The notes beneath the pieces are model-generated. The model ran no database searches. It was not told the origin of the DNA and saw only the letters and a program-made list of their open reading frames with translations. Positions 769 to 49,951 of a stretch of DNA of 49,951 nt are shown piece by piece. Origin of the DNA: Candidatus Woesearchaeota archaeon (GTDB taxonomy: Archaea > Nanobdellota > Nanobdellia > Woesearchaeales > SKGA01); assembly GCA_007117735.1 (NCBI GenBank), contig SKGA01000028.1, positions 1-49,951 of the forward strand, given 5' to 3'. The position numbers were made by a program, and so were the translations under genes. Position 1 is the stretch's first letter, and each line of letters opens with the position of its first letter.

Positions 769-1466
769 AAAAACAAAAAAAACAAGTTTCAAACAAAACA
801 GCAGGATTTATGATAGGTGGAGCAATTCTTGTTGCAATAATACTCTTTTTTAGCACAATACAAATAATAAACGAAACAAATATAGAAATAAACATAAATA
901 AAGAGTCAAATAATAAAGAAATAAATACTGATGAAAATATTATTTTAAATGGAACAGAATTAAATGGTGAAACAAAAATGGAAAATCAAGTAGAAATTAA
1001 AACAAACAAAGGAACAATTATTGTTCAATTAGATAAAGAAAATGCGCCGATCACGGTAGAAAACTTCCTAAATTATGTTGATAAACAGTTCTATGATGGA
1101 ACTATCTTACACAGAATTATCGAAGGATTTATGATTCAAGGAGGAGGATTTACTCCCGACGCTAGTGAAAAAGAAACCAACGAACCTATTGTTTTAGAAA
1201 GTCAAAACGGTTTAAGAAATGATAGAGGAACAATTGCAATGGCAAGAACCATGGTTCCTGATAGTGCAACAAGTCAATTCTTCATTAACGTTGTAGATAA
1301 TAATTTTCTAAATTACCAACCAGGTAACGAAGGATATGCTGTGTTTGGAAAAGTAATTGAAGGTATGGATGTTGTTGATAAAATTGTACAAGTACAAACA
1401 GGCTCAATTCCTATGCCTGACTGGCCTACAGAACCAGTTATTATTGAGAGTATTCGAAGAAAATGA
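765..1466 (+). CDS. Cyclophilin-type peptidyl-prolyl cis-trans isomerase with an N-terminal membrane anchor
   Basis: N-terminal TM segment [18 protein letters not shown]. The cyclophilin core motifs are present: [54 protein letters not shown]. Confidence 0.9.
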
Positions 1467-12642: not shown

Positions 12643-13854
12643 TTATTCTTGTTTCCAGTCAAGAAGAATCGTTGCCGCTTTTCGTTCCTCTTCTTCTTTG
12701 TATCGCATAGCAATATTACTTGAAAATTCTTTTTTCTCTTTTCCGGAAAAGTATTGTTCTAAAAAAGAGTTTGCAAATGAAGTATATTCTCCTTTTCGTA
12801 TTGCTTCTCGTAAGTCTTTCATTAATTGACTCATAAAATGAAGATTATGAATTGTTGCTAGACGATATCCTAATAACTCGTGCGTTCGTAATAAATGATG
12901 AAGATACGATCTTGAATAATGTTTACACGTGTGACATTCACAACCTTCAAAAATCGGACCTGAATCATTCTTAAACACTCTTTTCTTAATCATAATCCTT
13001 CCTGTTGGCGTGAATAAACTCCCGTGTCGAGCATTTGAAGTAGGATAAATACTATCAAAACAATCAACACCGTAGCCTACTGCTCGAACAATATCAGGAG
13101 GACTTCCAAGACCCATAAGATAACGAGGCTTTTCTCGAGGAAGATGTAAAACAGATTCATACACATTCTCAAAAAGTTCATCCCTACTCTCCCCGATAAC
13201 CAAGCCACCCAGAGCATATCCGTCAAAATCTAAAGAACCAATTTTATGAGTTGAAAATCGTCGATATTCTTTTGAAGTTCCTCCTTGTGCAATACCGAAG
13301 AGTAATTGTTTACTTCCTAATTCTTCTCGTCGCTTTTTATGATGTTCAAGACACCGTTCTGCCCAACGATGGGTTCGTTTAATAGCATCAACATATTCTT
13401 TTCCTGAGAGCCCGTAATGCGCCACATCATCAAAAGTCATTGCAACATCAGAACCTAGAGCAAGTTGATAATCCATAGATACTTCGGGAGTAAAAAAGTG
13501 TTTTTTCCCATGTCCATCTTTAAAGAAAACTCCACAATCTTCTTTTTTGAGAAGAAAATCTTTACTGAGAACTTGAAATCCTCCGCTGTCTGTAAAAATT
13601 GTTTTGGAGAAATGCATAAAAGAATGAATGCCTCCTTGATCTTGTACGATATCTATTCCTGGACTGAGTGAAAGAATAAAACTATTAGAAATAATACTTT
13701 CAAAACCTAATGCTTCAATATCTTTTCCTTCAAGAGCTTTTACACTTCCTTTTGAGGCTACAGGCATAAAAAAAGGCGTAGTTACTGTTCCAGAAGCAGT
13801 GTGTAACGATCCTACCCGGGCAAGACCGTCTTCGTAATGAATATCAAAAGACAT
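12643..13854 (-). CDS. tgt: tRNA-guanine transglycosylase, bacterial/eukaryotic (queuine/preQ1) type
   Basis: Collinear with bacterial Tgt: FMPVASKGSVKAL, TDSGGFQV, FDGYALGGLVIGE, KPRYLMGLGSP, PTSNARHG and the zinc motif CECHTCKHYSRSYLHHLLRTHELLGYRLATIHNLHF. Confidence 0.9.
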   Translation of the reverse strand: MSFDIHYEDGLARVGSLHTASGTVTTPFFMPVASKGSVKALEGKDIEALGFESIISNSFILSLSPGIDIVQDQGGIHSFMHFSKTIFTDSGGFQVLSKDFLLKKEDCGVFFKDGHGKKHFFTPEVSMDYQLALGSDVAMTFDDVAHYGLSGKEYVDAIKRTHRWAERCLEHHKKRREELGSKQLLFGIAQGGTSKEYRRFSTHKIGSLDFDGYALGGLVIGESRDELFENVYESVLHLPREKPRYLMGLGSPPDIVRAVGYGVDCFDSIYPTSNARHGSLFTPTGRIMIKKRVFKNDSGPIFEGCECHTCKHYSRSYLHHLLRTHELLGYRLATIHNLHFMSQLMKDLREAIRKGEYTSFANSFLEQYFSGKEKKEFSSNIAMRYKEEEERKAATILLDWKQE

Positions 13855-19551: not shown

Positions 19552-19861
19552 GTAAGGTGATCATTTCGGTTTCGGCTTATGCTGAGGAAAGTCCACCCAT
19601 CAACAAAAGTAGCTTCGCGAGTGAAGAATCTGAATAAGATTGGCAACCGTACAGAAATAATACCGCTTAAGATTAATGGAATGATACTGGAAATTTCTTT
19701 GGTGACAAGGAAAAGAACCGTTGACGTCGTCTTAAGAATGGGTGAAATGCGCGTCCCTACCGATGCAAGTCTTTATGGCGCTTAGTAGAATCCGGAAACA
19801 AGATATCGTAAATCGTTAAGATTTATTTGGTCTTGACAAAAGGTGGCTTATGTCACCTTAC
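19552..19861 (+). ncRNA. rnpB: RNase P RNA (archaeal type A-like)
   Basis: CR-I GAGGAAAGTCC at 19584-19594. CR-V-like ACAAAAGGTGGCTTA at about 19836-19850. P4 can form between AAGUCCACC and GGUGGCUU, leaving the universally conserved bulged U. A 9-bp terminal P1 forms between GTAAGGTGA (19552-19560) and TCACCTTAC (19853-19861). A T6 run follows. Confidence 0.85.
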
Positions 19862-24424: not shown

Positions 24425-24997
24425 CTATTCGTCTAGTGACTTGAAGACTTTTTGAATAAACTGCTCAGAATACTTCTGCTCTCGAAGAGTATACGCTATT
24501 TGTATATCACTATATCCTTGTTGTCGATAGTACATAATATACTGTTTTAATTGAGAAAAATTTCTTTTTCGGGTATGGAGTAAAACAAGAATAATAATCA
24601 CTAAAAAAGTCAAACCGCTAAAAAGATAGATAAATTGAAAAGACGAAGTAGAAGCAGTAGTTTGCTCAAGAGGAGGCTGTACTGGTCGAGGTCTTTGAGG
24701 ATCGGGATCGACAGGAGAAGATTGTTCAGAAGCATTAACAACAGAATCTCCATCTCTAAAAACTTCGTCTTCAAATAATTCAGGATTTAAAAAAACAAGG
24801 TCCTCATAAAATAAAACTTCTATATCTGCAAAAGAAACCTCGTGCTGACAAAAAAAAGGATAATCTTCACCAAATCGAGCAAGCGCTAAATCAACATCAA
24901 AACATTCTTCAGGTAGTTGAAAAGAAGAAACTGGAGAAACAACTACAAGTAATAATGCAAGAAAGAGTAACAGTTTACCTACAGACACGAGCACCAC
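24425..24997 (-). CDS. Secreted, single-pass membrane protein (last gene of the surface locus)
   Basis: Sec-like signal KLLLFLALLLVVVSPVSSF, then an acidic ectodomain, a P/Q-rich linker, a TM (FIYLFSGLTFLVIIILVLL) and a small cytoplasmic helical domain (YYRQQGYSDIQIAYTLREQKYSEQFIQKV). The likely true start is GTG at 24988, preceded by GAAGGTG plus a 6-nt spacer. It overlaps the 3' end of the upstream gene. Confidence 0.5.
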   Translation of the reverse strand: MVLVSVGKLLLFLALLLVVVSPVSSFQLPEECFDVDLALARFGEDYPFFCQHEVSFADIEVLFYEDLVFLNPELFEDEVFRDGDSVVNASEQSSPVDPDPQRPRPVQPPLEQTTASTSSFQFIYLFSGLTFLVIIILVLLHTRKRNFSQLKQYIMYYRQQGYSDIQIAYTLREQKYSEQFIQKVFKSLDE

Positions 24998-27900
24998 CTT
25001 CTCTTCTTTGTTCTGCTAGTTGCCAACGTCGAGTTCCATATTCAAAATGCCAAGAAGTATAGCTTGGTGAAGTAAAGCGAACAAAACCATAATCACAAAA
25101 AGCGTTTTCCCACGTGTTTGTATTGGTGGTTCTTCCTGTATTTGCATCTCGAAGAGTTACATCAATAGCGCCTGAAACCATATGAGGACAATGACGAGGA
25201 TTACTTCTTGTTCCAGGATTACAAGCAAGATTTCCTCCTCCTCGCAGATGATTTTGATATAACCTATTTTGAATCTCCCATGTTCGATACGCTTGCAAGA
25301 TTACTAATTCAATATCATTTGGAACGAAATATTCTCTACTCATTCTGATTAATTGTCGAGCCATCAATTCGTTAACAGCACAAATTCTTCCAACAGAAGA
25401 TGTTTCTTCATTACAAATAATATTAGGTATATTTCGTATATCATATAAAGGAGCGTTATCTAAATCTCCTCTGAGATGAGTTCCACCAGGTAAAATATAA
25501 GGGACAAGAGTAAAACTCGGCGTGAGATCAGGGAAAGGAACTCTTGTCGAAGGTAATTCAAATATCTCTTGATCAAGAAAATCAACCGGCTGATCTAATC
25601 GATCTAAGACTAATTCTTGTAATCGAGACTCAGGACGATTAGCTATTTGAAAGGTTAAGGATTCATCATCAAAATTGATTCTTCCTTTAAAGATCTGATC
25701 TGACGGCATACAAAGGTTTGAGTTGGAAAAATAATTCTGGAAAAAAGAAAAATCTTCATCAAAAAAAGAAGGCTCTAAAACTTCTTGGAATAAAAATGAA
25801 GAAATATCTTTTGATTCAACATTAAGATAATGATCAAAAACGTGTACTGAAAGATTATATGATCGTCCAGGAATAAAGAAACCACCATCAGGAGTGCTTG
25901 AAAGAAGAACTGAGTATGTATCTTCAGTTGATCCTCGAGAAACATATAATTGTTCTATAGTTGGTTCTAGTTGATTAATTAAAGATAATTCAGTTACTGA
26001 TTGTTCATAAAAGAAAAATGAATCAGTATTTCCTTCAAAAGATATTCCAAACATATAAGGATTATCCGTTTGAGAATCTACTGTCCACGTAACATAGAGT
26101 AGTTCTTGTGCTAAACAGCTTGTTTGTTCTAGAGATAAACTCTTTATTTCCGGAGCTTGACGATCGTCTAAATAAAGTGAAAAGAGAAAAGGTTCTTCGC
26201 TAAAAGAAAAATCTGCGTGTAAAGGAAAATAGTTTTTATTTGATCTGCACAGTAAAGAAGGATCAGTAATGCGCTCGTCAGGAAGGAGCCATTGTAAGTC
26301 ATCTCCATCCTTTAAAATTTGAAGAGAAGGAGAATCAAAAATAAACATATTACGTTCTGAAGGGTTTGGGAAAAAGTGAACTTTTTCATCCGCAATAGTG
26401 AAGAGTAAAGATGAAGAAGGATTCTGAAAGGGGGCATTACGAGTAAAATCAATAGCTGTCGAATGAAGAAGCTGAGAGGTTTGTAATGATCTTGATTCTG
26501 GTAAGTTGGTCAATCCTTCAATAATATCTCCTCGAGAAGTGAGTTGAAAACCATATACTGAAGAATCAATTTCAGGAACTAAAGAATGATTAATATGAAT
26601 ATCGCAAACACAAAGATCTTGATTATTTGTTAAACAATCAAGGTATTGCTCGGCAACAGATAAAGCAAGAGAAGATGTTGTCGGCAGACTAAAAGTATCT
26701 GGTAAATTTTCTGTTAAGCAAGATGCTGTATTATCATCGCACTCTCGATACAGTAAAGAGATCTTTTCTGAAAAAGAAGCAAATTCAGAAAAATTCATTG
26801 GATGATGAGTGACCATCCGCGGTAAAAATTCAATAGCGCTTGATAATAACGAACCTTGAATCGGAGATGAAGAATCTATACTTATCCCTATTTCGTCATA
26901 GTAGGATCGTGCTTGGCAATAAAATGTTTCAATATCACGAGCATAAGGGCAAGTTCGATCTTTAAGGAAAAACTCGCCGCTAGAACCTAAATCTCTATCA
27001 AAATTTCCTTGATAAATACAGAGAATACATTTCCACATTTCTTCAGGATTATTAGCATACTCATTACACCTGAAGTATTGTCCTTGCGAGATAGAGCTAT
27101 CTCCCGTTGTTGCTTCGGTAAACGCGTTAAAAAAAGTAGTTGCTGAACAACGAAGTTGTGCTTTATCAGAAATAACTGCAGGATGATCACAAGATAAATC
27201 ACTTGAGCATGTAGGGAACCATCCACAGCCTGTAAGAAAAGATTTATCTAACTCGTTTGCCCTTTGATTTGAAGAAGCTGCACCCATAGATGATTCTTTC
27301 ATCGCAATAGCCGTAAGTAAAGCAGGATCTATTCCTCGCTCCACACTTGATTGTATAAATGATTCTTCTAAAGACTGTTGAGAGCCAAATGCAGAGTTCT
27401 GTATTCTTGTTCGATAAGTATTTGACAATCGTTGATCCGGACTACAAGCAAAAGAAGGAGCAATCATATTTGTTGATAGCTGTGGAACTGCATTTTTAAA
27501 AAAAGAATCTAAAGAGTCATAACCTTGATCTTGATAAGATAAGCGAATTGCAGTAATATCATACTCTTTAAACCAAACAGTTTGTAATCTTTCTTGCACG
27601 AGGCCTCGCTCAGGAAGACTCGCACTGAACTGATAATCACCATGATATAATAATAATTGAGGAGAAGAAAATAAAGAGCTATTGAAAATAAGAATATCTC
27701 CTGGTTCAAACATGCTTACTTGATCAAAATTGCAAGTTCGACAAACAGCAGGCTTATCTAGTAATCGAGAAATATAAACAGTGGTTGTGTTTCGTTCTTG
27801 GAAAAAAGAAACGTTTGCATGAGTTCCAACCCACCATAACCAACCAGCGGAGTCAAATCCTGCTTCGGTTAAACGAGTAGTTCCTGGTTTAACAGGATAA

Positions 27901-28640
27901 AGAGGGAGATCATATAATAAAGAGTTTTCATCCTGTACAAGAAGAAATGCATCGCTAAAAGAATAAGGTGTTGAACCGTTTCGAACATAGGGTAGATGAA
28001 TACTTAAAGAGTGAAATCCGTCAATAAAATGTTGTGCTATTTCTGCAAAACAAGAACCCGCAGCACAATTTATTTGTCGTTCATAACCGTATGAAGAAAG
28101 TGCTGAAGAAAAGTATTTTGCCGTTGTTGCAGGCTGTATTTTTGATTGTGGAATAGTTTGAGAACTTGTTGGTTGAGAAAGAGGTTGTCGTAAATTTCTT
28201 GTTGCCTGCATATCAACAGTGGATCCCTCTTGAAAAAAGGATAATTGGGAAGGAAAAGTACCAATGGTTTGAAGGTTGTTGAATGTTTTTCGAATAAGTT
28301 CTTCATAGTTTTTTTCAAAAGAGGGAGGATTGTCAGGATACAAAGCCAAGAAAAGATGAGGGGTTGTTTGAAAAGAGGAAGGCGAAACATGGCCTGCTTG
28401 TTGAAGAAGAAGGGTTCTTGCTTCCTGTACAGAAAAACGAAGTGAATGTCTTAGTTCTTGTTCTTGAAGAAAAATATCTTGTGTTGAAGAAAGTAAGGAG
28501 TATTGTTGCGAGCCAATTATTAAACGATCGTCAGAAACAGTAAAGAGATTAAAAGGAGTAAAAACAATATCTACTACAATAATAAAAAAAACCACTGCTA
28601 AGAAAAGCATTCCAAAACCTTTTTTATGTAATCGTTTCAT
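24975..28640 (-). CDS. Pilin-like-anchored multidomain peptidoglycan hydrolase (SLT-like lytic transglycosylase motif plus C-terminal M15/VanY-type D-Ala-D-Ala peptidase; possible papain-like module)
   Basis: The N-terminus MKRLHKKG/FGMLFLAVVFFIIVVDIVF looks like a class III signal. IDPALLTAIAMKESSMG (nt about 26961-27368) matches the SLT catalytic Glu-Ser region. The C-terminal 136 aa (nt 24978-25385) carry QAYRTWEIQNRLY, NPG...HCPHMVSGAIDV and WHFEYG, which are the M15 zinc-ligand motifs. GSCFAEIAQHF, GFDSAGWLWWV, EPGDILIF and LYHGD (nt about 27531-28088) are weakly NlpC/P60- or transglutaminase-like. Confidence 0.75.
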   Translation of the reverse strand: MKRLHKKGFGMLFLAVVFFIIVVDIVFTPFNLFTVSDDRLIIGSQQYSLLSSTQDIFLQEQELRHSLRFSVQEARTLLLQQAGHVSPSSFQTTPHLFLALYPDNPPSFEKNYEELIRKTFNNLQTIGTFPSQLSFFQEGSTVDMQATRNLRQPLSQPTSSQTIPQSKIQPATTAKYFSSALSSYGYERQINCAAGSCFAEIAQHFIDGFHSLSIHLPYVRNGSTPYSFSDAFLLVQDENSLLYDLPLYPVKPGTTRLTEAGFDSAGWLWWVGTHANVSFFQERNTTTVYISRLLDKPAVCRTCNFDQVSMFEPGDILIFNSSLFSSPQLLLYHGDYQFSASLPERGLVQERLQTVWFKEYDITAIRLSYQDQGYDSLDSFFKNAVPQLSTNMIAPSFACSPDQRLSNTYRTRIQNSAFGSQQSLEESFIQSSVERGIDPALLTAIAMKESSMGAASSNQRANELDKSFLTGCGWFPTCSSDLSCDHPAVISDKAQLRCSATTFFNAFTEATTGDSSISQGQYFRCNEYANNPEEMWKCILCIYQGNFDRDLGSSGEFFLKDRTCPYARDIETFYCQARSYYDEIGISIDSSSPIQGSLLSSAIEFLPRMVTHHPMNFSEFASFSEKISLLYRECDDNTASCLTENLPDTFSLPTTSSLALSVAEQYLDCLTNNQDLCVCDIHINHSLVPEIDSSVYGFQLTSRGDIIEGLTNLPESRSLQTSQLLHSTAIDFTRNAPFQNPSSSLLFTIADEKVHFFPNPSERNMFIFDSPSLQILKDGDDLQWLLPDERITDPSLLCRSNKNYFPLHADFSFSEEPFLFSLYLDDRQAPEIKSLSLEQTSCLAQELLYVTWTVDSQTDNPYMFGISFEGNTDSFFFYEQSVTELSLINQLEPTIEQLYVSRGSTEDTYSVLLSSTPDGGFFIPGRSYNLSVHVFDHYLNVESKDISSFLFQEVLEPSFFDEDFSFFQNYFSNSNLCMPSDQIFKGRINFDDESLTFQIANRPESRLQELVLDRLDQPVDFLDQEIFELPSTRVPFPDLTPSFTLVPYILPGGTHLRGDLDNAPLYDIRNIPNIICNEETSSVGRICAVNELMARQLIRMSREYFVPNDIELVILQAYRTWEIQNRLYQNHLRGGGNLACNPGTRSNPRHCPHMVSGAIDVTLRDANTGRTTNTNTWENAFCDYGFVRFTSPSYTSWHFEYGTRRWQLAEQRREGGARVCR

Positions 28641-42803: not shown

Positions 42804-45800
42804 TTAGGGAATGAAAAAAATAGTTGGTTCTTCAAACACAATATTTCTTACTTTTGGATTAATTTGTAACCAGTCTCCTTGATTTCCTCCCCGATCAACA
42901 GCTCTAAAATAAAGATGACTTCTCGCGTGTGTTTCTACAGATAGCAATAAATCTACCTCTGAAGAAGTAGTTCTTGAAACTCCTCCTTGACAATGAGTAA
43001 GAGGATCAAACGTTGCAAGATCAACCGCTGGTCCAAAGCAGTACTCTATCTCTTGACAACCAAACTGTTGAATGGGAATTTGCGAATCAAAATCATCACA
43101 GACTAAACGTAGTTCTCGTTCGAGTACCCAATCAAACAGCGTTGGGAAATAAGGAGTAAATGGTTCTTGTAATGTATCTCGTGCAAGTACTGAAACAGTT
43201 GGCGCGAGTCTATCAATCGTGAAGGTTGCATAATCTCCTGGTTCTTGCTCAGTAATTTCATTAGAGAATTCGCATGAGAAATAGAAAATATAAGGTCTGC
43301 TTTCTTGTGCTTGAATCCCTAATGATGAAGGAAATGAATCTAGACGATGAATATGTGTCGTTCCTCCTGTTTGAGAAAAGGTTCCTCTTGCTTGTGCATG
43401 AGGTCTTTGTTCTGTATCAAACTTACACGTAGCATCATTTACTGTTTGTAATTCTAAAACAACGCTAGAGAGATTTCGATACACTCCTCCTCGTGGAAGA
43501 ATATTAAAGATTGAAGGATTTGCTTCTATAGTAATATCTTCTTGGTATACAAGATCATTCCCAAAATCATCATAACAAGTGAGATTAAAATAATAATAGC
43601 CATCTTGTAAAAATAAGTAGGTGGCGTTAAAGTCTGTTCCAAAGGAAGCAACGTGTTGTCCTCCAATAACTTGTCCTGTTAAATGATCATGTAATCTTCC
43701 TTCACAGAATGAAGACTTGTCTATTTCAAAAGAGACGGTGAGGTTTGTTCGATAGATTCGAGGAGCAACATCAAAAGAATCTTCTTTCGTTTCAAATGAG
43801 ACCAATTCAGGACTCGTTTTATCTATAAAAATAAAACTATGATTAACTACTTCTAAATTTCTAGCTGGATCCATTGAATAATAGAGTAATACATATTCTT
43901 GACTATCATCTGAAAGGTTAGTATATCCATCTCCTCCCGGTAAATAATCATCTAAAGTATAAACAGGGTATGTCGGACAACCTTGATCTAAACAAGCGAG
44001 AGCTACAGATGAGTCAGTAGTGCAATCATCACAATCATCTGGCATATAACATTGTATTTGTGCACAGCTTGCGGGCGCAAGTGCTACATAAGTTAAAAGT
44101 CGTTCACTTTCCCAGGTTGAGTCTTCTACTGTGAAAAGGATTTCTGATAATTGGCTTTTTCCATATACGGGCAAATAAGAACCATCTGTTCGTTGATATC
44201 GAGTTTCTTGAACTGGTGAACGTAGTTGTAAAGTTGTTTCCGGAGCTTCATTATCTAAAATACAATCAAGTCGTTCTGAATTTCGAACTCCTGTACTTAA
44301 CGATCCTGTTCCTCGTTCAAAGCAATCGTCATAAAAAGGATTTATTGAAGAGACATATCCATCACGATTACTAAAGCAACCTTGAACACCTCCTTGATCA
44401 ACCCATTGACAAGTTCCTCTCCCAAAAAGATCATTACTTAACTGCCTTGGTTCATTTGTTCCAGCAATTCGTTGATTTCCGTCGTAAAAAACATTTATTT
44501 CAAACGCTTGATTATTCGTTCCTACACATTGTTCTTCAGTTTCATAAAAGAAACAACCAATAGTTTCTTGTGCTAAACATGCTGGAAGGAAAGGATCAGA
44601 GTGTCGAACAGGAAGAGAGATATCTGCGTTTCTAAAAACGGTTTGTTCTACTCTAGGAGGTGAAGCTGATTGATTGTGGTTTTGTGTTTCTTTAAAGAAA
44701 CAATCACCGTATAATCCGCAAAAATTTTCGTTACAAGTTCCAATCGGACTATCCGTATCACAAAGTGTACAATTTTGATCTTGTACCTCTACTGGTTGAC
44801 AAACTCCAAGACCTAATTCATCACTATAACTTTGCCAAGAACAACCATTTACTGCTTGATTATCATCTAAATCAGTAAACCTAAAACAAGGGTCTTGAGA
44901 ACAAGCTCCTTCTGTCTGATAATCATAACAACTTCGTACTTCATCACAAGAATCATACGTTTCAAAAAATCCTCCTCTCATATCTAAATAACAAAGACCA
45001 ATTTGTGAACCTTCTGGTTCTGGTGTTGCGAGAGGTTGGCTAGGGTCATATTCAAAATCTTCACAAAATAAAAGGGTTGAACCTGTCGAAAAAGACATTT
45101 GTACTTCAAAATTGTAAGGTGAGAATTGGTCAAATAACCCGTTACATAACTCACAAGGTCCTGATTGTACACAAGCAGCTCCTGTTGCTAAAGGATTGTT
45201 TGGTTGAAATGGCGTGTGAACACAGGTTTCACTTGCAGAACAAAATTCTACTGTTTGAAACGTGTTATTCGTATACACGTTATCTCGAATAGTTTCCACA
45301 TAACATCCTGTCGGACTTTCTCCGCCAAAAGAATCCGTTGCACAAATTAAACCAAAAGCTCGTGGTTGATGGCAATACAAATCCCCTGAATTAAAACAAG
45401 GAAGGGTTCCATCCGCATCTACCGCACAGTGTTCTTGACCATCCGCGGTCAAAGTACAAACATTGTAACAATAGTTAGTATTCTCTTGAAGTGCTGAAGC
45501 GAATATTGCTTCCTGTAACGTCTGTTGAACAATTTTTGAATTTTTTGTCCCCTGTGCGCAAGTATTCGGACTTACCCCGCTTTCTTCACACATAATAATA
45601 CGATGACCAACAATATTTTGTTGACAAGATGCTGAAAGATTAGTTCTCCATCGCAATTTTACATCGCTTGTACCTTGGGTATAATATACCCCTGTTGGAA
45701 ATTCTAAATTAGCATAAGAATCAAGAATGTTTCGAGTGTTTTGTCGTTGAGAATCAGTAAATTCATCTAAGAAAGAAGGTGCTTGTTCATCACAAGTATT

Positions 45801-47000
45801 TTGACATAAGGGACTATTTTGACAACTTGGACACGTATCACATTTTGCGACATCATCACAAACCGCGCAAAAATCTTGACATTGCGAATAATCAAAACCA
45901 CAATCAGCAGTACAACCTAAATTACCTCCAGTTAACCCAACTGTTGAACACGCGGGCGCATCTGTTGAAATCGTTCCGTCAGGAAAATGTCGATAATAAG
46001 TGATTCCCGTATCTCTATCAATATCGCATTGTTCAAAACCAGTTACTTCCCCATCACCACAAAGACTCCCTAATTGAGTAGAAGTAGGACAATCAAAATC
46101 TTGACCTTCAGGATCGGGAGTGTTTTGAGTAAGTACAGAGATAGGTCGATCTGTTAAAATACCGCAAGCATTTTGATCAGTTACTGTTCGAAGTTTTACA
46201 TATTCAGTTCCATAAGGAACACATTGACCCCAAGGACCCACATCCCAATCAGGAACACAAGGAGAAGTTATTTCCTGACAATCAAGAACAAAATCAATAG
46301 TTTTTGTTGTGTAAGGTCCTGAAAATTGTTGAGAAATTGTTTGTGGTTGACAGTCAAGAAAAACAGCGTCACCATTTCGAGTAATTTGATAATTTTGCGG
46401 GGCTGTCGCGCTAAATTGGTTAAGAGCATTATCAACTCCAGGAATATCTCCTAAATTATAATGTCCTGTACCATTTGTTGTTGCAGAAATAAACAAGCCA
46501 TTTTCTGCTTGCACCGTAATTCCTGGTAAAGGAATTCCTGAAGCATTATTCATTCGTACAGTCCCAATAACTTCATGCATAATAGTTGGTTGCGCACTAG
46601 GATCACAATCACAAACGCCGTTTGTGGGCGCTACAGGAGTATAAGCACCTCCTTGAACAGTCTCACAGTAAGATTTTTGAATTTCTGAAGGTAATAAATT
46701 AACAGATGAAGCTCCAAAGTCCAACACATTACCAAAACCATCACAACAACAAGCCGTTTCAGTAACATCAGGTAAAATATTCCCGGAAGCGTCAAGACAA
46801 TTGTCGACAAAAACAGAGTTAGGATTCCAAGCTACACAGTCAGCAGCACTGGGAGAAGAGGATGAAGGTATATAAACACCCGTTCCAGGTAGAGAAGGGT
46901 TTGCGTAAGGCATAACGCAACAAGCTTGAGAATTAGCTTGCACTAATGGAAGAAACAGTAATACTGCAATGAATAAAAATAAATACGCTTTCACAACCAA
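42804..47000 (-). CDS. Giant secreted cysteine-rich surface protein (about 1396-1398 aa) with no C-terminal anchor
   Basis: Signal YLFLFIAVLLFLPLVQANS. Several dozen Cys; I counted 29 in the first roughly 410 aa. CarboxypepD_reg-like segment VIGTVRMNNASGIPLPGITVQAENG...TNGTGHYNLGDIPG. TSP1-like CVPDWDVGPWGQCVPYGTEYVKLRTVTDQNACG at nt 46161-46259. CGDGEVTGFEQCD Cys-rich repeat. C-x2-Y-x5-C-x4-C module at nt about 44830-44935. The likely start is GTG at 46994 (AGGGTG plus a 7-nt spacer) rather than TTG at 47000. Confidence 0.8.
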   Translation of the reverse strand: MVVKAYLFLFIAVLLFLPLVQANSQACCVMPYANPSLPGTGVYIPSSSSPSAADCVAWNPNSVFVDNCLDASGNILPDVTETACCCDGFGNVLDFGASSVNLLPSEIQKSYCETVQGGAYTPVAPTNGVCDCDPSAQPTIMHEVIGTVRMNNASGIPLPGITVQAENGLFISATTNGTGHYNLGDIPGVDNALNQFSATAPQNYQITRNGDAVFLDCQPQTISQQFSGPYTTKTIDFVLDCQEITSPCVPDWDVGPWGQCVPYGTEYVKLRTVTDQNACGILTDRPISVLTQNTPDPEGQDFDCPTSTQLGSLCGDGEVTGFEQCDIDRDTGITYYRHFPDGTISTDAPACSTVGLTGGNLGCTADCGFDYSQCQDFCAVCDDVAKCDTCPSCQNSPLCQNTCDEQAPSFLDEFTDSQRQNTRNILDSYANLEFPTGVYYTQGTSDVKLRWRTNLSASCQQNIVGHRIIMCEESGVSPNTCAQGTKNSKIVQQTLQEAIFASALQENTNYCYNVCTLTADGQEHCAVDADGTLPCFNSGDLYCHQPRAFGLICATDSFGGESPTGCYVETIRDNVYTNNTFQTVEFCSASETCVHTPFQPNNPLATGAACVQSGPCELCNGLFDQFSPYNFEVQMSFSTGSTLLFCEDFEYDPSQPLATPEPEGSQIGLCYLDMRGGFFETYDSCDEVRSCYDYQTEGACSQDPCFRFTDLDDNQAVNGCSWQSYSDELGLGVCQPVEVQDQNCTLCDTDSPIGTCNENFCGLYGDCFFKETQNHNQSASPPRVEQTVFRNADISLPVRHSDPFLPACLAQETIGCFFYETEEQCVGTNNQAFEINVFYDGNQRIAGTNEPRQLSNDLFGRGTCQWVDQGGVQGCFSNRDGYVSSINPFYDDCFERGTGSLSTGVRNSERLDCILDNEAPETTLQLRSPVQETRYQRTDGSYLPVYGKSQLSEILFTVEDSTWESERLLTYVALAPASCAQIQCYMPDDCDDCTTDSSVALACLDQGCPTYPVYTLDDYLPGGDGYTNLSDDSQEYVLLYYSMDPARNLEVVNHSFIFIDKTSPELVSFETKEDSFDVAPRIYRTNLTVSFEIDKSSFCEGRLHDHLTGQVIGGQHVASFGTDFNATYLFLQDGYYYFNLTCYDDFGNDLVYQEDITIEANPSIFNILPRGGVYRNLSSVVLELQTVNDATCKFDTEQRPHAQARGTFSQTGGTTHIHRLDSFPSSLGIQAQESRPYIFYFSCEFSNEITEQEPGDYATFTIDRLAPTVSVLARDTLQEPFTPYFPTLFDWVLERELRLVCDDFDSQIPIQQFGCQEIEYCFGPAVDLATFDPLTHCQGGVSRTTSSEVDLLLSVETHARSHLYFRAVDRGGNQGDWLQINPKVRNIVFEEPTIFFIP

Positions 47001-47077: not shown

Positions 47078-49951
47078 TCATGTCCAACTCCCTGACGCTT
47101 GACAGGTGAAACCACATTCTTGAGCGTTTAATGGGCGGGAAAGAACAGGTGATGAAACACTGGTAGGATTATTTCCTTGACAGAAATGAAGTTGTCCGTC
47201 ACAACTAAGCATTCGTGGTTGTAATTGAGAACCAACTGTTGAAAATCTTGTACCTGAAGACCTTACAGTTCCTTGATAACAAGTCGCTTCCCCTAAAAGA
47301 GGGTTCTGAGCAGTAATAGTTCTTTGACCAGTACAACACATCGCGTTAGGATTTTGTCCTGTTGCCTGAAAACCTTGAGACTGATCGAAGAAAGGAACTG
47401 AGGTTCCTGGGAAGTCATCATAAGACACAAAAGAAGGATCTAAGGATGATTTTGTTTGACAATAACATGCTTCTCGTGAAGTTAATGTCGGTGTTATTTG
47501 ACAATTTTCAGTACAAGCTGCCGTTCCTTGACAAAGAAAACCCACTTCTCCTTGCGGAGTTACAAAATCGCTAGCAAGTAATCCTTGGCAAGTTGAATCT
47601 CCTTGCGTACACATACAAAGATCAAGATTATGATATGCACAATCACCTTCACCATCACAGGTTGCTTGACACGTAAATACTTCTGTAGGAAGGGTTTGTT
47701 GGACATTCCCATAATTCATTTCTACAAATTGATTTGCTGAGGTTATTAATTGAGCAGTAGCCTCCGGGGCGCAGTAGCCTTGATTAATTTCTGCGGCATT
47801 CGGATGTAGAGTGAGTTGTTGTGAAGAAAGCACTTGTTGTTCAAAAGATGTACCTTCATAATATATACAAACAAGATCCCTCGAATCTAAGGATAATGGG
47901 GAAGTTCCTAGATTTGTTCCTGCATGTACAGTTGTAAAAGGAATGGTCTGTTGAAAGATTGATTCATATCCTGGTCCTGAACAGGTTGCAAATTGCCAAG
48001 CGCTAGCCCCACTAAAACTTGTCGGTGTCGCATCACACGCTAGTTCCGTAAACCAGGTCGTTGCCAATCTCCCTCCACAAACGTTTCCTCGCTCTCCTGA
48101 ACAATATTGATTATGAGTAACTCTAAACACGTTATTAATAGATGGTTGTTGTAGATTAAAAGGATTTAATCCTCCAAAGACATCTTGAATAAAAGTTCCA
48201 CCACCAAATTGTTCTTCATAGGTTTGTTGAGTAACAGGGCCAATAGTTCCGTTTACGTATTCAAGCACTGCTCGATCAAGAAAAAGAAACGATCCTGTTG
48301 TTGCAGGGTGAAGTGCAAACACTTCTTCAGAAAAATCATTTGTTGTAAAACAAAGTTCTGCTGCACTTCGAAACGATCCTCCTGTCAATGGTTGGATAGT
48401 ACGATCTAGAGGTTCACAACAACTATGAGGAGGGTTTCCTTGCCAGTACGAGGATAATTGTATGTTTGAGTTAACACCAGCAGGATAATCAGTACTTGTC
48501 CCTAACGAAGTATTAAATTGATGAGGGAGACACTCTGCTACAAAAACTTCTGCAACATCTGGTTGACTGAATATCATTGAAGAAGAGGATTGGTTTTGTC
48601 CGACAATAAGTTCAATTTCGTGTCTTGTGGGATTGTTAACTAAATTATCTCGTTGAAAATAGTCAAAAACAATAGTGCTTATTGTTGAATCGTTTCCGAG
48701 AATATGAACAGGGTTTAATTGTGTGATAAAAAATCCTTCAAGAATATCTAGAAAAATAAACTGAGAAAGAGTTGTTCCTAATAATCTACTTGCAGTGCTG
48801 TTCGTCGCGTCAAGAATATATTTATCTTCAATACTTGCATACCTATTATCAATATCTGGAAATTCATTTCTTGTTTCTAAAACTGCTAACGGCAGATCAA
48901 AAACTAAGAATCGAACAATTTGAAAATCTTTTGCTCCGTGTTCATCTTCAACAACAACAGTTATTTCTCGAAAGCCAATATCTGATTCGTTGGTTTGAAA
49001 TTCAGCAATTCTTTTTGTATCTCGAAAGGCTTGGCTTGATGTTAGGATGTTTGTTACCATATAATCTCGTTCTAAACATTGTTGATGATTTTCTAAAGTA
49101 CAACCTCCCATATCATCACAACAAGCCAAATTAAGATATTCATCATAATCTTCTTTCCATCCAAAAAAAGCGTAGGTAATAGTATCTTCATCCGGATCAA
49201 CTGCAAAAGGCTCTAATCGGACAGTGTCGTTAGTATAAACTAAAATATCTATAGGTATATCATTAAAGAAGTTAGTATTCCCGTCAGTAATGTAATCGAG
49301 AATTGGTTTTCGTTGTTTACTTGCGACAATAAATCGAAAAGGATCTCCTTGTAAGAGAGAACTTTCATCTTGAAAAATCAAGACGTCATCGGCAAGATTT
49401 TGTACCTGTGTACAATTTGCACAAGCGCTCCGCACCCGTTCTACTGAAAGAATAGGTTGAAATCCTGCAGTCGTAGAGTAATCTCTAGAAATAACGAAAA
49501 AAGGATCCCGAAGTGATCGGAAAATTGTTTCAAAAGCGAAATTGTATAATCGTTTGATATTAATATCTGTTCGTGATTGAAAATCAACAGTTCTTGCAAT
49601 ACTTCGAGAACCATCTACCGTGATATCAAAAGGAAATTCTGCTCGAGTAATAATTCCTCGTGGTGATTGAAACGTTGAAACAACGTGAACGTTTTCTTCT
49701 TGTAAAGAAATATCAAACGCGACTAACTCTTCTGTAAATAAAGAAAAATTAACACAAGAGCTCAATTGATTTTGAACAAAACTTTCAAGCTGTCGCTGTA
49801 TAGCGTAGGGTTCTCGAGGAGTGTCATATTGGTGTGCTGCACAACTAAAGATCCCTTCATCAAGGTTGAATGCGTTTGAACCATTATATGAGCAGAGTTT
49901 TGGAAACTCATTCGCTCCTAAATAACCACTCATCGTACTTACTCGTTCACC
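47078..49951 (-). CDS. Giant cysteine-rich surface protein, 5'-truncated by the window edge (more than 957 aa)
   Basis: The reading frame stays open from the track Met (49933) to the last base of the window (GGT GAA CGA GTA AGT ACG ATG). MSGYLGANEF... has no signal peptide, so the true N-terminus probably lies outside the window. VDPDEDTITYAF is an Ig/cadherin-like motif. The C-terminal third is very Cys-rich. Confidence 0.7.
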   Translation of the reverse strand, partial: GERVSTMSGYLGANEFPKLCSYNGSNAFNLDEGIFSCAAHQYDTPREPYAIQRQLESFVQNQLSSCVNFSLFTEELVAFDISLQEENVHVVSTFQSPRGIITRAEFPFDITVDGSRSIARTVDFQSRTDINIKRLYNFAFETIFRSLRDPFFVISRDYSTTAGFQPILSVERVRSACANCTQVQNLADDVLIFQDESSLLQGDPFRFIVASKQRKPILDYITDGNTNFFNDIPIDILVYTNDTVRLEPFAVDPDEDTITYAFFGWKEDYDEYLNLACCDDMGGCTLENHQQCLERDYMVTNILTSSQAFRDTKRIAEFQTNESDIGFREITVVVEDEHGAKDFQIVRFLVFDLPLAVLETRNEFPDIDNRYASIEDKYILDATNSTASRLLGTTLSQFIFLDILEGFFITQLNPVHILGNDSTISTIVFDYFQRDNLVNNPTRHEIELIVGQNQSSSSMIFSQPDVAEVFVAECLPHQFNTSLGTSTDYPAGVNSNIQLSSYWQGNPPHSCCEPLDRTIQPLTGGSFRSAAELCFTTNDFSEEVFALHPATTGSFLFLDRAVLEYVNGTIGPVTQQTYEEQFGGGTFIQDVFGGLNPFNLQQPSINNVFRVTHNQYCSGERGNVCGGRLATTWFTELACDATPTSFSGASAWQFATCSGPGYESIFQQTIPFTTVHAGTNLGTSPLSLDSRDLVCIYYEGTSFEQQVLSSQQLTLHPNAAEINQGYCAPEATAQLITSANQFVEMNYGNVQQTLPTEVFTCQATCDGEGDCAYHNLDLCMCTQGDSTCQGLLASDFVTPQGEVGFLCQGTAACTENCQITPTLTSREACYCQTKSSLDPSFVSYDDFPGTSVPFFDQSQGFQATGQNPNAMCCTGQRTITAQNPLLGEATCYQGTVRSSGTRFSTVGSQLQPRMLSCDGQLHFCQGNNPTSVSSPVLSRPLNAQECGFTCQASGSWT

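What the first reader, a model, noticed from the sequence alone, without database searches (positions are those of the whole stretch)
42804..47000. About 1398-aa secreted protein packed with cysteines and eukaryote-like extracellular-matrix motifs (TSP1-like, Cys-rich CGDGE repeat)
Seen:
- A signal peptide and no C-terminal anchor.
- 29 Cys in the first roughly 410 aa, and many more after that.
- CVPDWDVGPWGQCVPYGTEYVKLRTVTDQNACG (nt 46161-46259) follows the W-x2-W-x2-C...R...C layout of thrombospondin type 1-like repeats.
- SLCGDGEVTGFEQCD matches the CG(D/N)G-x-x-E-x-x-E-x-CD Cys-rich repeat known from Myxococcales-type and disintegrin-like proteins.
- A carboxypeptidase-regulatory-like beta-sandwich lies near the N-terminus.
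- The C-terminal half has beta-sandwich repeats ending in D-x-x-G-N motifs (YDDFGNDLV, VDRGGNQGD).

Inference: this is a disulfide-stabilised, non-anchored adhesin or tip component that must associate with the anchored or pilin-like partners encoded downstream. Such a density of extracellular disulfides also implies an oxidative-folding capability that small-genome archaea are not generally assumed to have.
Basis: partly seen in the sequence, partly recalled or inferred. Interest (0 to 1): 0.65.

Follow-up and report, generated by a model that had tools for sequence, protein, structure and literature searches.

The report
Disulfide-packed secreted protein beside archaeal pilin genes
A tiny symbiotic-type (DPANN/Woesearchaeota-like) archaeon encodes a 1398-residue secreted, unanchored surface protein held together by about 39 disulfide bonds; it always sits in the same gene cluster as pilin-like genes, so it is most likely an adhesin-like accessory part of a pilus-type surface apparatus, in a protein family nobody has described.

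Summary
Window 42804-47000 (minus strand) encodes a 1398-aa protein with a Sec-type signal peptide, no anchor and 78 Cys, and the quoted motifs are at the stated coordinates. In 27 full-length orthologues (26-48% identity), 68/78 Cys are conserved at >=90%, against 72/1320 other residues. All 26 complete orthologues have an even mature Cys count (70-88), and variable Cys appear or vanish in local pairs. This is strong evidence for about 39 intramolecular disulfides.

Domain claims are only partly supported. CarboxypepD_reg-like, FN3-like and Ig-like (Big_13-type) sandwiches have family-level support. The "TSP1-like" stretch is one copy of a prokaryotic W..W..C..R module that occurs in tandem in bacterial proteins. 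Its profile hits only the THSD7A thrombospondin repeat in PDB (E 1.6e-5), but Pfam TSP_1 never matches. CGDG..EQCD is a single motif, not a repeat, and not significant.

The gene lies in a conserved locus: giant class-III-signal protein, this protein, membrane-anchored giant, four pilin-like ORFs, then tiny Cys-rich pilin-like ORFs.

Best reading: an adhesin-like, non-pilin accessory subunit of a DPANN type-IV-filament-like apparatus. This is inferred, not shown. No oxidoreductase is in the window, so the oxidative-folding inference is untested.

The parts
42804..47000 (-). Whole gene: 1398-aa secreted, non-anchored, Cys-rich protein (mature about 151 kDa, pI 4.1, 78 Cys)
46935..47000 (-). aa 1-22: Sec-type signal peptide (MVVK + hydrophobic core + VQA|N). 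It is not a class III/prepilin signal.
   Evidence: Sequence inspection; hydropathy; A-x-A-type ends in all orthologues
46581..46934 (-). aa 23-140: N-terminal Cys-rich region (10 Cys) that opens with a conserved CC doublet a few residues after the cleavage site
   Evidence: 79/82 superfamily members also start with CC.
46281..46580 (-). aa 141-240: CarboxypepD_reg-like (prealbumin-like) beta-sandwich
   Evidence: Pfam PF13620 E 5e-5, 24 bits, below the cutoff of 32.3; hit in 11/27 orthologues; AF2 pLDDT 60-87 here; Foldseek prealbumin-like hits
46125..46280 (-). aa 241-292: single W-x4-W-x2-C...R-x-V-T-D-x-N-x-C-G module (4 invariant Cys: 241, 248, 260, 279); TSR-like at motif level
45771..46124 (-). 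aa 293-410: densest Cys region (14 Cys, 11.9%), containing the single CGDG..EQCD motif followed by CxxC-rich knots
45411..45698 (-). aa 435-530: FN3-like beta-sandwich with a variable Cys pair at 515/525
   Evidence: AF2 pLDDT 55-68; Foldseek FN3 hits with TM up to 0.75; pair covariation
44256..45410 (-). aa 531-915: central Cys-rich core (29 Cys). It has no Pfam or PDB relative and is the part shared with most of the ~430 superfamily clusters.
42807..44255 (-). aa 916-1398: about four Ig-like beta-sandwich modules with invariant D..N motifs (D1044/N1048, D1144/N1148, D1369/N1373) and a conserved C-terminal N-x-K-[IV]-R-[DN]-x-x-F-x-x-P end
   Evidence: Big_13, Y_Y_Y and Big_3_3 are hit in orthologues.
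47078..49951 (-). Upstream neighbour: C-terminal part of an 1125-aa Cys-rich protein. Its N-terminus lies outside the window and reads VNRKGQ|LTLLVIAGLG..., a class III (prepilin-like) signal, so this is a giant modular pilin-like protein.
   Evidence: weak Tad (TadE/G-like) Pfam hit E 0.003
38502..42788 (-). Downstream neighbour: 1428-aa protein with a Sec signal, Ig-like repeats, GVDCGGPC modules, a TM helix at aa 1196-1214 and a ~210-aa charged coiled-coil cytoplasmic tail. It is a candidate membrane anchor partner.
35917..38505 (-). Four pilin-like ORFs (166, 367, 162 and 166 aa), each starting M(K/S)(R/K)AQ followed by about 20 hydrophobic residues
   Evidence: The same four occur in L001-L004, L006, L009, L012 and L013. 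No Pfam/NCBIfam pilin model hits them, so this is a motif-level inference.
35617..35883 (-). Tiny (81-88 aa) pilin-like ORF, RKKAE|LSMNIIIMAIIGL..., with a 6-Cys C-terminal knot; candidate filament subunit
34435..35601 (-). 388-aa protein with an N-terminal TM or pilin-like segment and 24 Cys. It shares a short Cys module with the target (aa 691-726 against 354-384, E 0.011).

Best explanation
The gene encodes a Sec-exported, about 151-kDa acidic extracellular protein of a DPANN (Woesearchaeota/Nanoarchaeota-type) archaeon. Its non-Cys sequence evolves fast, while a scaffold of about 39 intramolecular disulfides is strictly kept.

The architecture, from N- to C-terminus, is:
1. signal peptide
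2. CC-initiated Cys-rich region
3. prealbumin-like sandwich
4. one TSR-like W..W..C module
5. Cys knots
6. FN3-like sandwich
7. a roughly 385-aa Cys-rich core with no known relative
8. about four Ig-like sandwiches

It has no anchor of its own. It is a fixed component of a conserved cluster of class-III-signal (type IV pilin-like) genes. Most likely it works as a non-pilin, adhesin-like accessory subunit. After export and oxidative folding it would be held non-covalently by the neighbouring giant pilin-like protein (at the filament tip or priming complex) and/or by the membrane-anchored 1428-aa neighbour, and would present its variable surface for attachment to a host cell or substrate.

Shown here: secretion signal, lack of anchor, disulfide scaffold, domain types, conserved synteny. 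Inferred: association with the filament, adhesin function, host attachment.
For: - Anatomy and Cys statistics.
- Cys conservation: 63/78 invariant in 5 sequences; 68/78 at >=90% in 27 orthologues against 5.5% for other residues.
- Even Cys count in 26/26 orthologues, and paired gain or loss of variable Cys; 70/79 even in the wider superfamily, none of which has a C-terminal hydrophobic anchor.
- Adhesin-type domains: CarboxypepD_reg, Big_13, Y_Y_Y, SdrD_B and Big_3_3 across orthologues and relatives; FN3 and prealbumin folds.
- Conserved gene order with a giant class-III-signal protein, a TM-anchored giant and four or more pilin-like ORFs in L001-L006, L009, L012 and L013.
- Tight spacing (77-bp and 15-bp gaps) on one strand.
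- Fast divergence. For the same genome pair, AsnRS is 70% identical while this protein is 29% identical. The pairing rests on P0173 and L003 sharing a contig length of 89,601 bp.
- Literature: large adhesin-like, Ig-rich or PilY-like proteins are recurrent accessory genes of archaeal type IV filament loci, and system 1 (Epd-like) occurs in DPANN (bioRxiv 10.64898/2026.04.22.720090).
- The organism is DPANN-type.
Against: - No experimental or structural evidence links the protein to a filament.
- No assembly ATPase, platform protein or prepilin peptidase is in the cluster.
- The pilin-like ORFs match no Pfam or NCBIfam pilin model. Only the [KR][KR][GA]Q + hydrophobic motif and a weak Tad hit support that reading.
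- AF2 models were unusable (mean pLDDT 45 and 37), so no binding surface or disulfide map could be read.
- About 70% of the protein has no recognisable domain, so an enzymatic or other function cannot be excluded.
- No disulfide-forming enzyme was seen in the 50-kb window.
Confidence: 0.55

Rival explanations
1. It is a general cell-envelope or S-layer-like structural protein of the DPANN cell. It happens to be encoded next to pilin-like genes and has no role in a filament or in adhesion.
For: - It is large, acidic (pI 4.1), secreted and rich in beta-sandwiches, like many archaeal envelope proteins.
- No assembly machinery is in the cluster.
- The TFF preprint notes that some Ig-rich accessory proteins resemble S-layer proteins.
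Against: - It has no membrane anchor, PGF-CTERM-like tail or lipobox.
- N-glycosylation sequons are not enriched: 12 observed against 11 expected.
- Synteny with pilin-like genes is strictly conserved even at 26-29% identity and in distant superfamily members, which is unusual for a mere neighbour.
- Very fast sequence divergence fits an interaction surface better than a lattice.
Confidence: 0.2
2. It is a released cargo or effector: a soluble protein exported with the help of the pilus-like machine (as TcpF and CofJ are with bacterial type IVb pili, from my own knowledge). It would act on the host envelope together with the cluster's peptidoglycan-hydrolase-like protein.
For: - It is non-anchored and has a Sec signal.
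- The same cluster encodes a 1221-aa protein with a VanY-like D,D-carboxypeptidase domain.
- The TSR-like module is shared with bacterial proteins that carry PG_binding_1.
Against: - No catalytic or toxin domain is detected in the protein or in 27 orthologues.
- The architecture is that of stalk or adhesin proteins (repeated sandwiches).
Confidence: 0.12
3. The conserved cysteines bind metals (Zn, Fe-S) or stay reduced in an anoxic habitat, and do not form disulfides.
For: - Many Woesearchaeota live in anoxic settings (general knowledge).
- Several CxxC motifs are present: 6 C..C.
- No oxidoreductase is in the window.
Against: - Variable Cys are gained and lost in units of two neighbouring residues, not in fours.
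- Cys counts range from 50 to 153 and are almost always even.
- The location is extracellular.
- There are no CxxCH motifs.
- CC doublets and irregular spacings are typical of disulfide knots.
Confidence: 0.06
4. It is a eukaryote-derived extracellular-matrix protein (true thrombospondin or disintegrin homologue) acquired by horizontal transfer.
For: - The module profile hits THSD7A only in PDB.
- The CGDG..EQCD motif resembles the ADAM disintegrin start.
Against: - Pfam TSP_1 and disintegrin models never match.
- The ADAM17 match has E 0.17.
- The module is abundant in tandem in bacterial proteins.
- The rest of the protein has no eukaryotic relative.
- GC content and context are native to the archaeon.
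Confidence: 0.02

Closest known systems
Large adhesin-like accessory proteins of archaeal type IV filament (TFF) loci (Ig-fold-rich or PilY-like proteins; Epd-type 'system 1' of methanogens and DPANN), as surveyed in bioRxiv 10.64898/2026.04.22.720090
   Same: - Large secreted multi-sandwich protein encoded among class-III-signal pilin-like genes in an archaeon.
- Presumed adhesion or recognition role.
   Different: - No sequence relation was shown to any of those arCOG families.
- Extreme disulfide content (about 39).
- A roughly 385-aa Cys-rich core with no known relative.
- The cluster lacks ATPase and platform genes.
- It is flanked by a giant modular pilin-like protein and a TM-anchored giant.
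Bacterial PilY1/PilC tip-associated adhesins of type IVa pili (own knowledge of the family)
   Same: - Roughly 1000-1400-aa non-pilin protein with a Sec signal and no anchor.
- Encoded within a minor-pilin gene cluster.
- Expected to ride on a minor-pilin complex.
   Different: - No PilY1/Neisseria_PilC beta-propeller domain detected.
- Archaeal, not bacterial.
- Cys-rich.
- The association with pilins is only inferred from synteny.
Thrombospondin type 1 repeat (TSR; Pfam TSP_1), specifically the THSD7A-type W-x-x-G-x-W-x-x-C variant (PDB 8oxr)
   Same: - Short Cys-rich module with two Trp, then Cys, then a Q-T-R strand.
- It is the only PDB hit of the module profile (E 1.6e-5).
- In 5-Cys variants an extra Cys pair links the Trp segment and the Arg segment, as expected if these strands are adjacent.
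   Different: - Pfam TSP_1 never matches.
- 4 (or 6 in variants) Cys arranged differently.
- One conserved Arg instead of R-x-R.
- A conserved T-D-x-N-x-C-G tail not found in TSRs.
- The module is widespread in bacteria.
DUF4215 / Myxococcus cysteine-rich repeat (PF13948, TIGR02232) and the N-terminal CGNG..E..GEECD motif of disintegrin domains
   Same: The C-G-[DN]-G-x-x-x-x-x-E-x-C-[DE] motif (family consensus CGDGxLxxGEQCD).
   Different: - Single copy, not tandem.
- HMM support in only 1/27 orthologues at E 0.006.
- No NCBIfam hit.
- ADAM17 E 0.17.
MdbA/VKOR-dependent disulfide-bonded pilins of Gram-positive bacteria and CPR (10.1101/335083)
   Same: Extracytoplasmic disulfide bonding of pilus-related proteins in monoderm and ultra-small episymbiont cells.
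   Different: - No MdbA/DsbA/VKOR homologue was found in the window.
- The disulfide load per protein here is far higher.
- The lineage is archaeal.

Membership tests
Thrombospondin type 1 repeat (Pfam PF00090 TSP_1) | Match to the family HMM | tested here: not met
   No TSP_1 hit at E<=1 for the protein, at E<=10 for the isolated aa 226-411 fragment, in any of 27 orthologues, or in proteins with 9-10 tandem modules.
Thrombospondin type 1 repeat (Pfam PF00090 TSP_1) | Trp ladder (W-x2-W-x2-W) stacked with an R-x-R strand | tested here: inconclusive
   Two invariant Trp with W-x4-W spacing, and one near-invariant Arg in a Q-T-R-T-V-T strand. A profile of the module hits only the THSD7A TSR in PDB, at E 1.6e-5.
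Thrombospondin type 1 repeat (Pfam PF00090 TSP_1) | Six Cys forming three disulfides in about 55 residues | tested here: not met
   Four invariant Cys (241, 248, 260, 279) in the target's module. The tandem forms have 4 or 6 in a different arrangement.
Thrombospondin type 1 repeat (Pfam PF00090 TSP_1) | Three-stranded elongated fold | tested here: inconclusive
   The AF2 model shows three short strands at aa 252-275, but pLDDT is only 58-64. Foldseek gave no TSR hit.
DUF4215 / Myxococcus Cys-rich repeat (PF13948, TIGR02232) | HMM match and tandem repetition of the CGNG..E..EECD unit | tested here: not met
   Target: no hit in Pfam or NCBIfam. Orthologues: 1/27 at E 0.006. One copy per protein.
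Disintegrin domain | Sequence similarity beyond the CGNG..GEECD start | tested here: not met
   The region profile against PDB matches ADAM17 at E 0.17, over 29 residues only.
CarboxypepD_reg (PF13620) prealbumin-like sandwich | HMM score above the gathering cutoff | tested here: inconclusive
   Target 24 bits against a cutoff of 32.3. L004 orthologue 31.8 bits. 11/27 orthologues at E<=0.01. Relatives P0037 (35.4 bits) and P0052 (161.8 bits) are above the cutoff. The moderately confident AF2 sandwich and Foldseek prealbumin-like hits agree.
Bacterial Ig-like domains (Big_13 PF19077, Big_3_3, Y_Y_Y) | HMM match in the C-terminal half | tested here: inconclusive
   None in the target. Big_13 in 3/27 (best 5.4e-11), Y_Y_Y in 4/27, Big_3_3 in 2/27 orthologues. 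The D..N motif residues are invariant. Internal repeat support is weak, hhalign probability 42-47%.
Type IV pilin / archaeal class III signal peptide protein | N-terminal [KR]-[GA]-cleavage motif directly followed by about 20 hydrophobic residues | tested here: not met
   The target has a classical n-h-c Sec signal ending VQA|N, as do all orthologues. The neighbours do have the class III motif.
PilY1/PilC-type pilus tip adhesin | Encoded in a (minor) pilin gene cluster; Sec signal; no pilin N-terminus | tested here: met
PilY1/PilC-type pilus tip adhesin | C-terminal PilY1/Neisseria_PilC beta-propeller domain | tested here: not met
   No such Pfam hit in the target or in 27 orthologues.
PilY1/PilC-type pilus tip adhesin | Physical location at the pilus tip or priming complex | not testable with these tools
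   Needs microscopy, biochemistry or confident complex modelling.
Anchored archaeal surface proteins (PGF-CTERM/archaeosortase, lipobox, C-terminal TM) | C-terminal TM or sorting signal, or Cys at +1 of a lipobox | tested here: not met
   There is no hydrophobic segment after aa 19. The orthologue C-termini are hydrophilic beta-strand-like. 0/79 superfamily members have a C-terminal hydrophobic stretch. The CC doublet lies 1-10 residues after the A-x-A site, not at +1.

The most novel reading that the evidence does not exclude
This family, with its conserved about 25-kb locus, would define a DPANN-specific host-attachment organelle. The locus comprises a giant modular pilin, the 39-disulfide secreted protein, a transmembrane giant with a cytoplasmic tail, four minor-pilin-like proteins, a tiny knotted pilin, and a peptidoglycan-hydrolase-like protein. 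In this reading the disulfide-knotted protein is the fast-evolving host-recognition tip. Its existence (50-153 paired Cys per protein across about 430 sequence clusters) would mean that these reduced-genome archaea possess a still unidentified extracytoplasmic disulfide-forming system. Sharing of the TSR-like module with bacterial (CPR-like) surface proteins would point to a common episymbiont toolkit.
Probability: 0.3. Interest if true: 0.75.

Novelty: new variant of a known kind. Interest (0 to 1): 0.5.

Why it matters
How DPANN archaea recognise and hold on to their hosts is largely unknown, and most lineages, Woesearchaeota included, are uncultured.

- A conserved, fast-evolving secreted protein fixed in a pilin-like gene cluster is a concrete candidate for the host-recognition determinant. 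It could be used to predict host range, as bait for host capture, or as a marker in cryo-ET.
- The disulfide evidence (even counts, paired covariation) also makes a biochemical question testable: where does a genome-reduced archaeon get extracytoplasmic oxidative folding for about 39 disulfides per molecule?
- If the family turns out to be just another surface protein, the result still supplies annotation for about 430 unannotated sequence clusters, and a named prokaryotic TSR-like module.

Tried and rejected
- **Structure prediction.** AF2 on two halves with the only admissible alignment (3 sequences) gave mean pLDDT 45.1 and 37.1. That is unusable except for the aa 143-278 and 463-533 sandwiches. 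The Foldseek output is therefore only domain-level and weak.
- **Word-index homology searches.** These found only two relatives, which wrongly suggested a near-orphan. The exhaustive HMMER search corrected this to 430 clusters.
- **JGI metagenome scan.** Nothing found.
- **PDB sequence searches.** Searches with the 3-sequence and 27-sequence family profiles gave nothing significant.
- **NCBIfam.** Nothing for the target or the pilin-like ORFs.
- **Bacterial promoter/terminator scan.** Uninformative for an archaeon.
- **Paralogy with neighbours.** The 1428-aa neighbour shows only weak Ig-like similarity (E 0.013). The giant ORF upstream of Memo shows none.
- **Multihaem cytochrome.** Rejected, because there is no CxxCH motif.
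- **Lipoprotein anchoring through the CC doublet.** Rejected, because its distance from the signal cleavage site varies.
- **A PSI-domain-like reading of the C-x-x-Y...C...C-x-F/W...C-x-W module.** Considered, but there is no HMM or PDB support.
- **Literature.** Searches found no description of this family or of DPANN extracellular disulfide machinery.

Full report
**1. What is in the sequence**

The finding's coordinates hold an ORF on the minus strand, 42804..47000, with a TTG start, 1398 aa long.
- It has 78 cysteines (5.6%), 29 of them in the first 410 residues.
- All four quoted peptides are at the stated positions.
- The N-terminus (MVVK, hydrophobic core, VQA|N) is a classical Sec/signal-peptidase-I signal.
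- No other hydrophobic segment exists, so there is no membrane anchor.
- The mature protein is about 151 kDa, with pI 4.1, no CxxCH motifs and no excess of N-glycosylation sequons.

The window is archaeal: it carries an archaeal RNase P RNA at 19552-19861. GC content is about 34%. The closest named relatives of its AsnRS, at 65-71% identity, are 'Candidatus Woesearchaeota', 'Nanoarchaeota' and 'Nanoarchaeia'. The 'small-genome archaeon' premise is therefore reasonable.

**2. Size of the family**

The word-index searches found only two relatives, at 46% and 43% identity. A genome scan found two more at 32% and 28%. The exhaustive HMMER search with a profile of aa 239-1199 changed this picture:

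| E-value threshold | Representative clusters (50% identity) |
|---|---|
| <= 1e-3 | 430 |
| <= 1e-10 | 300 |
| <= 1e-30 | 81 |

About 27 of these are full-length orthologues of 1330-1570 aa. Many longer or shorter proteins share only the central Cys-rich core or the C-terminal sandwiches. None carries a name, and there is no significant hit in PDB sequences.

**3. The cysteines**

Conservation:
- In the 5-sequence alignment, 63/78 Cys are invariant, against 13.8% of all positions.
- In 27 orthologues at 26-48% identity, 68/78 Cys are >=90% conserved and 50 are invariant. Only 72/1320 other residues reach 90%.

Two further tests speak specifically for disulfides.
- *Parity.* The number of Cys after the signal peptide is even in 26 of 26 complete orthologues, although it ranges from 70 to 88 (binomial p = 3e-8). 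In the wider superfamily 70 of 79 proteins are even, with 50-153 Cys (p = 8e-13). Relatedness inflates these p-values, but the counts differ between sequences, so many independent changes all happened in twos.
- *Paired covariation.* The few variable Cys co-occur in neighbouring pairs: 515/525 (p = 2e-5), 979/984 (p = 2e-5), 86/132 (p = 1e-3), 990/993, and an extra pair near 1358/1361 in four orthologues.

The disulfide-scaffold reading is strongly supported, with about 39 disulfides in this protein.

**4. Domains**

Pfam on the target gives only CarboxypepD_reg at aa 145-192, E 5e-5, 24 bits, below the cutoff of 32.3. NCBIfam gives nothing. Scanning all 27 orthologues gives the following:

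| Pfam family | Orthologues hit (of 27) | Best E-value |
|---|---|---|
| CarboxypepD_reg | 11 | 9.6e-07 |
| CarbopepD_reg_2 | 5 | 8e-07 |
| Y_Y_Y | 4 | 0.0012 |
| Big_13 | 3 | 5.4e-11 |
| SdrD_B | 3 | 0.00011 |
| Big_3_3 | 2 | 0.00048 |
| DUF4215 | 1 | 0.0061 |
| TSP_1 | 0 | none |

More distant relatives show the same design: N-terminal CarboxypepD_reg domain(s), a Cys-rich core, then Big_13/Big_3_3 domains.

AF2 on two halves was poor, with mean pLDDT 45 and 37. Only the aa 143-278 sandwich and an aa 463-533 sandwich were moderately confident. Foldseek matched these to prealbumin-like and FN3 folds.

They are typical last-strand motifs of Big_13/HYR-type Ig-like domains (own knowledge). Internal repeat detection is weak, with hhalign probability 42-47%.

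**5. The 'TSP1-like' stretch**

Residues 241-292 are one copy of a module with invariant C-x-P-x-W, W-x-x-C, R-x-V-T-D-x-N-x-C-G.
- The same module occurs in 3-10 tandem copies in other proteins: P0004, P0079, P0085, P0087.
- P0079 sits on a contig with F-type ATP synthase genes, so that contig is bacterial. The tandem-module proteins also carry PG_binding_1.
- A 5-Cys variant of the module adds one Cys between the two Trp and one in the Arg strand. This suggests the two segments are adjacent.
- A profile of 32 modules has exactly one hit among 177,635 PDB sequences: the thrombospondin-repeat protein THSD7A (E 1.6e-5, two repeats, W-x-x-G-x-W-x-x-C...Q-T-R).
- Pfam TSP_1 never matches, even on proteins with ten copies. 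The Cys number and arrangement also differ from those of TSRs.

I therefore call it a prokaryotic TSR-like module: a motif-level and possibly fold-level resemblance, with membership in TSP_1 not established. It is not evidence of eukaryotic origin.

**6. The CGDG..EQCD motif**

It occurs once per protein. Support is one DUF4215 hit in 27 orthologues, and a non-significant match to the start of the ADAM17 disintegrin domain (E 0.17). 'Repeat' is wrong, and family membership is not supported.

**7. Genomic context**

The gene lies in a long minus-strand cluster, from 24425 to beyond the window end. Contig L006, from the same organism (1 mismatch in 4000 nt), shows that the upstream neighbour is an 1125-aa Cys-rich protein starting VNRKGQ|LTLLVIAGLG... 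That is a class III (prepilin-like) signal, and the window's '951-aa ORF' is this protein's C-terminal part.

Downstream of the target come, in order:
1. a 1428-aa protein with a Sec signal, Ig-like repeats, a TM helix and a ~210-aa charged cytoplasmic tail
2. four ORFs beginning M(K/S)(R/K)AQ plus a hydrophobic stretch
3. a tiny 81-88-aa pilin-like ORF with a 6-Cys knot (35617-35883)
4. a 388-aa Cys-rich protein
5. several N-terminally anchored proteins
6. a 1221-aa protein with a VanY-like domain

The same order recurs in every homologous locus with enough flank: giant class-III protein, target family, TM-anchored giant, four K(K/R)(A/G/S)Q ORFs, tiny Cys-rich pilin-like ORFs. This includes an orthologue at 29% identity (L009) and distant superfamily members (L012, L013).

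A Memo-like gene and another giant Cys-rich ORF lie upstream in L003-L006. In L005 the cluster is bounded by RNase P p30. No ATPase, platform or prepilin peptidase gene is in the cluster.

The pilin reading of the neighbours rests on the conserved motif and on a weak Tad (TadE/G-like) hit for the giant (E 0.003). No Pfam or NCBIfam pilin model matches the short ORFs.

**8. Interpretation**

Shown:
- a secreted, unanchored protein
- a disulfide scaffold
- multiple sandwich domains
- fast divergence (29% identity where AsnRS of the same genome pair is 70% identical)
- obligate linkage to a pilin-like cluster

Inferred: it is an adhesin-like, non-pilin accessory subunit. It would be retained by the giant pilin-like neighbour and/or the anchored neighbour of a type-IV-filament-like apparatus used for attachment.

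This works like bacterial PilY1/PilC, or like the secreted partners of type IVb minor pilins (own knowledge). It also fits the recurrent 'large adhesin-like proteins' of archaeal TFF loci. It is not a sequence member of any of those families.

Rivals:
- an envelope or S-layer-like protein
- a released effector acting with the peptidoglycan-hydrolase-like protein
- metal-binding Cys (disfavoured by the pairwise covariation)
- eukaryotic HGT (disfavoured)

**9. The oxidative-folding inference**

It is logical, but not tested. No thioredoxin-fold, DsbA, DsbB, VKOR or DsbD hit occurs in any window ORF of >=100 aa. I found no paper on extracytoplasmic disulfide formation in DPANN. For CPR bacteria, an MdbA-like/VKOR pair has been proposed for pilin folding.

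**10. Verdict**

The thing is an unannotated, fairly large family: a new variant of a known kind, namely large adhesin-like accessory proteins of archaeal pilus-type loci. Its distinguishing features are its extreme, strictly paired cysteine content and a Cys-rich core with no known relative. Interest is moderate (0.5). It would be higher if the locus proves to be a DPANN host-attachment organelle with an unknown oxidative-folding system.

Noticed in passing
window 24975-28640 (-): A 1221-aa N-terminally anchored protein at the end of the same cluster has a C-terminal VanY-like D,D-carboxypeptidase domain (Pfam E 7e-5, below cutoff; NCBIfam vanXY E 0.0015). By eye it also has an SLT-like '...AIAMKESS...' motif, which Pfam does not support. 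This looks like a peptidoglycan-hydrolase-like enzyme in an archaeon and hints at a bacterial host. Murein-like lytic transglycosylases in DPANN are mentioned in PMC10936187.
   Followed up: partly
L006 3672-4529; also L003 4666-5541, L004 1102-1968, L005 5421-6299 (just outside the window's right end): A cytoplasmic Memo-like gene (PF01875, E down to 5.5e-33, 0 Cys, no signal peptide) is conserved inside the cluster, between two giant Cys-rich secreted proteins, in at least four genomes. Its role there is unexplained.
   Followed up: partly
window 35617-35883 (-): A tiny 81-88-aa ORF, missed at the 100-aa cutoff: RKKAE|LSMNIIIMAIIGLIILAIV plus a 6-Cys C-terminal knot. It has faint defensin-like Pfam hits (E 0.05-0.2). 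One or two copies are conserved in L006 and L009. It could be the actual filament subunit.
   Followed up: partly
window 38502-42788 (-), aa ~1085-1135: The 1428-aa neighbour has two tandem 'C-x-N-G-x-x-D-P-x-E-E-G-V-D-C-G-G-P-C' modules just outside its TM helix. It also has a ~210-aa Q/E/K-rich coiled-coil cytoplasmic tail, an unusual transmembrane design for an archaeal surface protein.
   Followed up: no
window 47078-49951 (-): The ORF listed as 951 aa is truncated by the window edge. In the same organism (L006) it is 1125 aa, with a class III signal peptide (VNRKGQ|L...) and 40 Cys, i.e. a giant modular pilin-like protein.
   Followed up: yes
window aa 691-726 of the target (nt ~44823-44930) and window 34435-35601 (-) aa 304-384: A short Cys module, C-x-x-Y-x-T-E-x-x-C-x-x-D-x-C-x-F...C-x-W, is shared between the target's core and the C-terminus of the 388-aa pilin-like protein, where it occurs twice (BLASTP E 0.011). 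It also appears at the C-terminus of L009's 574-aa protein. The cluster proteins seem to exchange Cys-rich modules.
   Followed up: partly
L003, L004 (GTDB genome records CAZSZY010000001.1, CAZFEG010000008.1): Both MAGs are titled 'uncultured Methanosarcinales archaeon'. However, the AsnRS cluster whose longest contig has L003's exact length (89,601 bp; P0173) is 70% identical to the window's, and the named relatives are Woesearchaeota/Nanoarchaeota. The database label is probably wrong.
   Followed up: partly
window 1463-3145 (+) and 10156-11448 (-): The window encodes a bacterial-type AspRS with a GAD domain, and also a separate class II AsnRS. It also has a bacterial-size queuine-type TGT (12643-13854) and a cyclophilin with an N-terminal TM segment (765-1466). 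This is a mix of bacterial-like housekeeping genes typical of DPANN.
   Followed up: no
P0079, P0085, P0087, P0004 (not in window); L014: These bacterial (F-type ATPase context) secreted proteins have an N-terminal coiled coil, PG_binding_1 and 3-10 tandem copies of the W..W..C..QTRTVTD.N.CG module, in 4-Cys and 6-Cys variants. The module appears to have no Pfam model and deserves one.
   Followed up: partly
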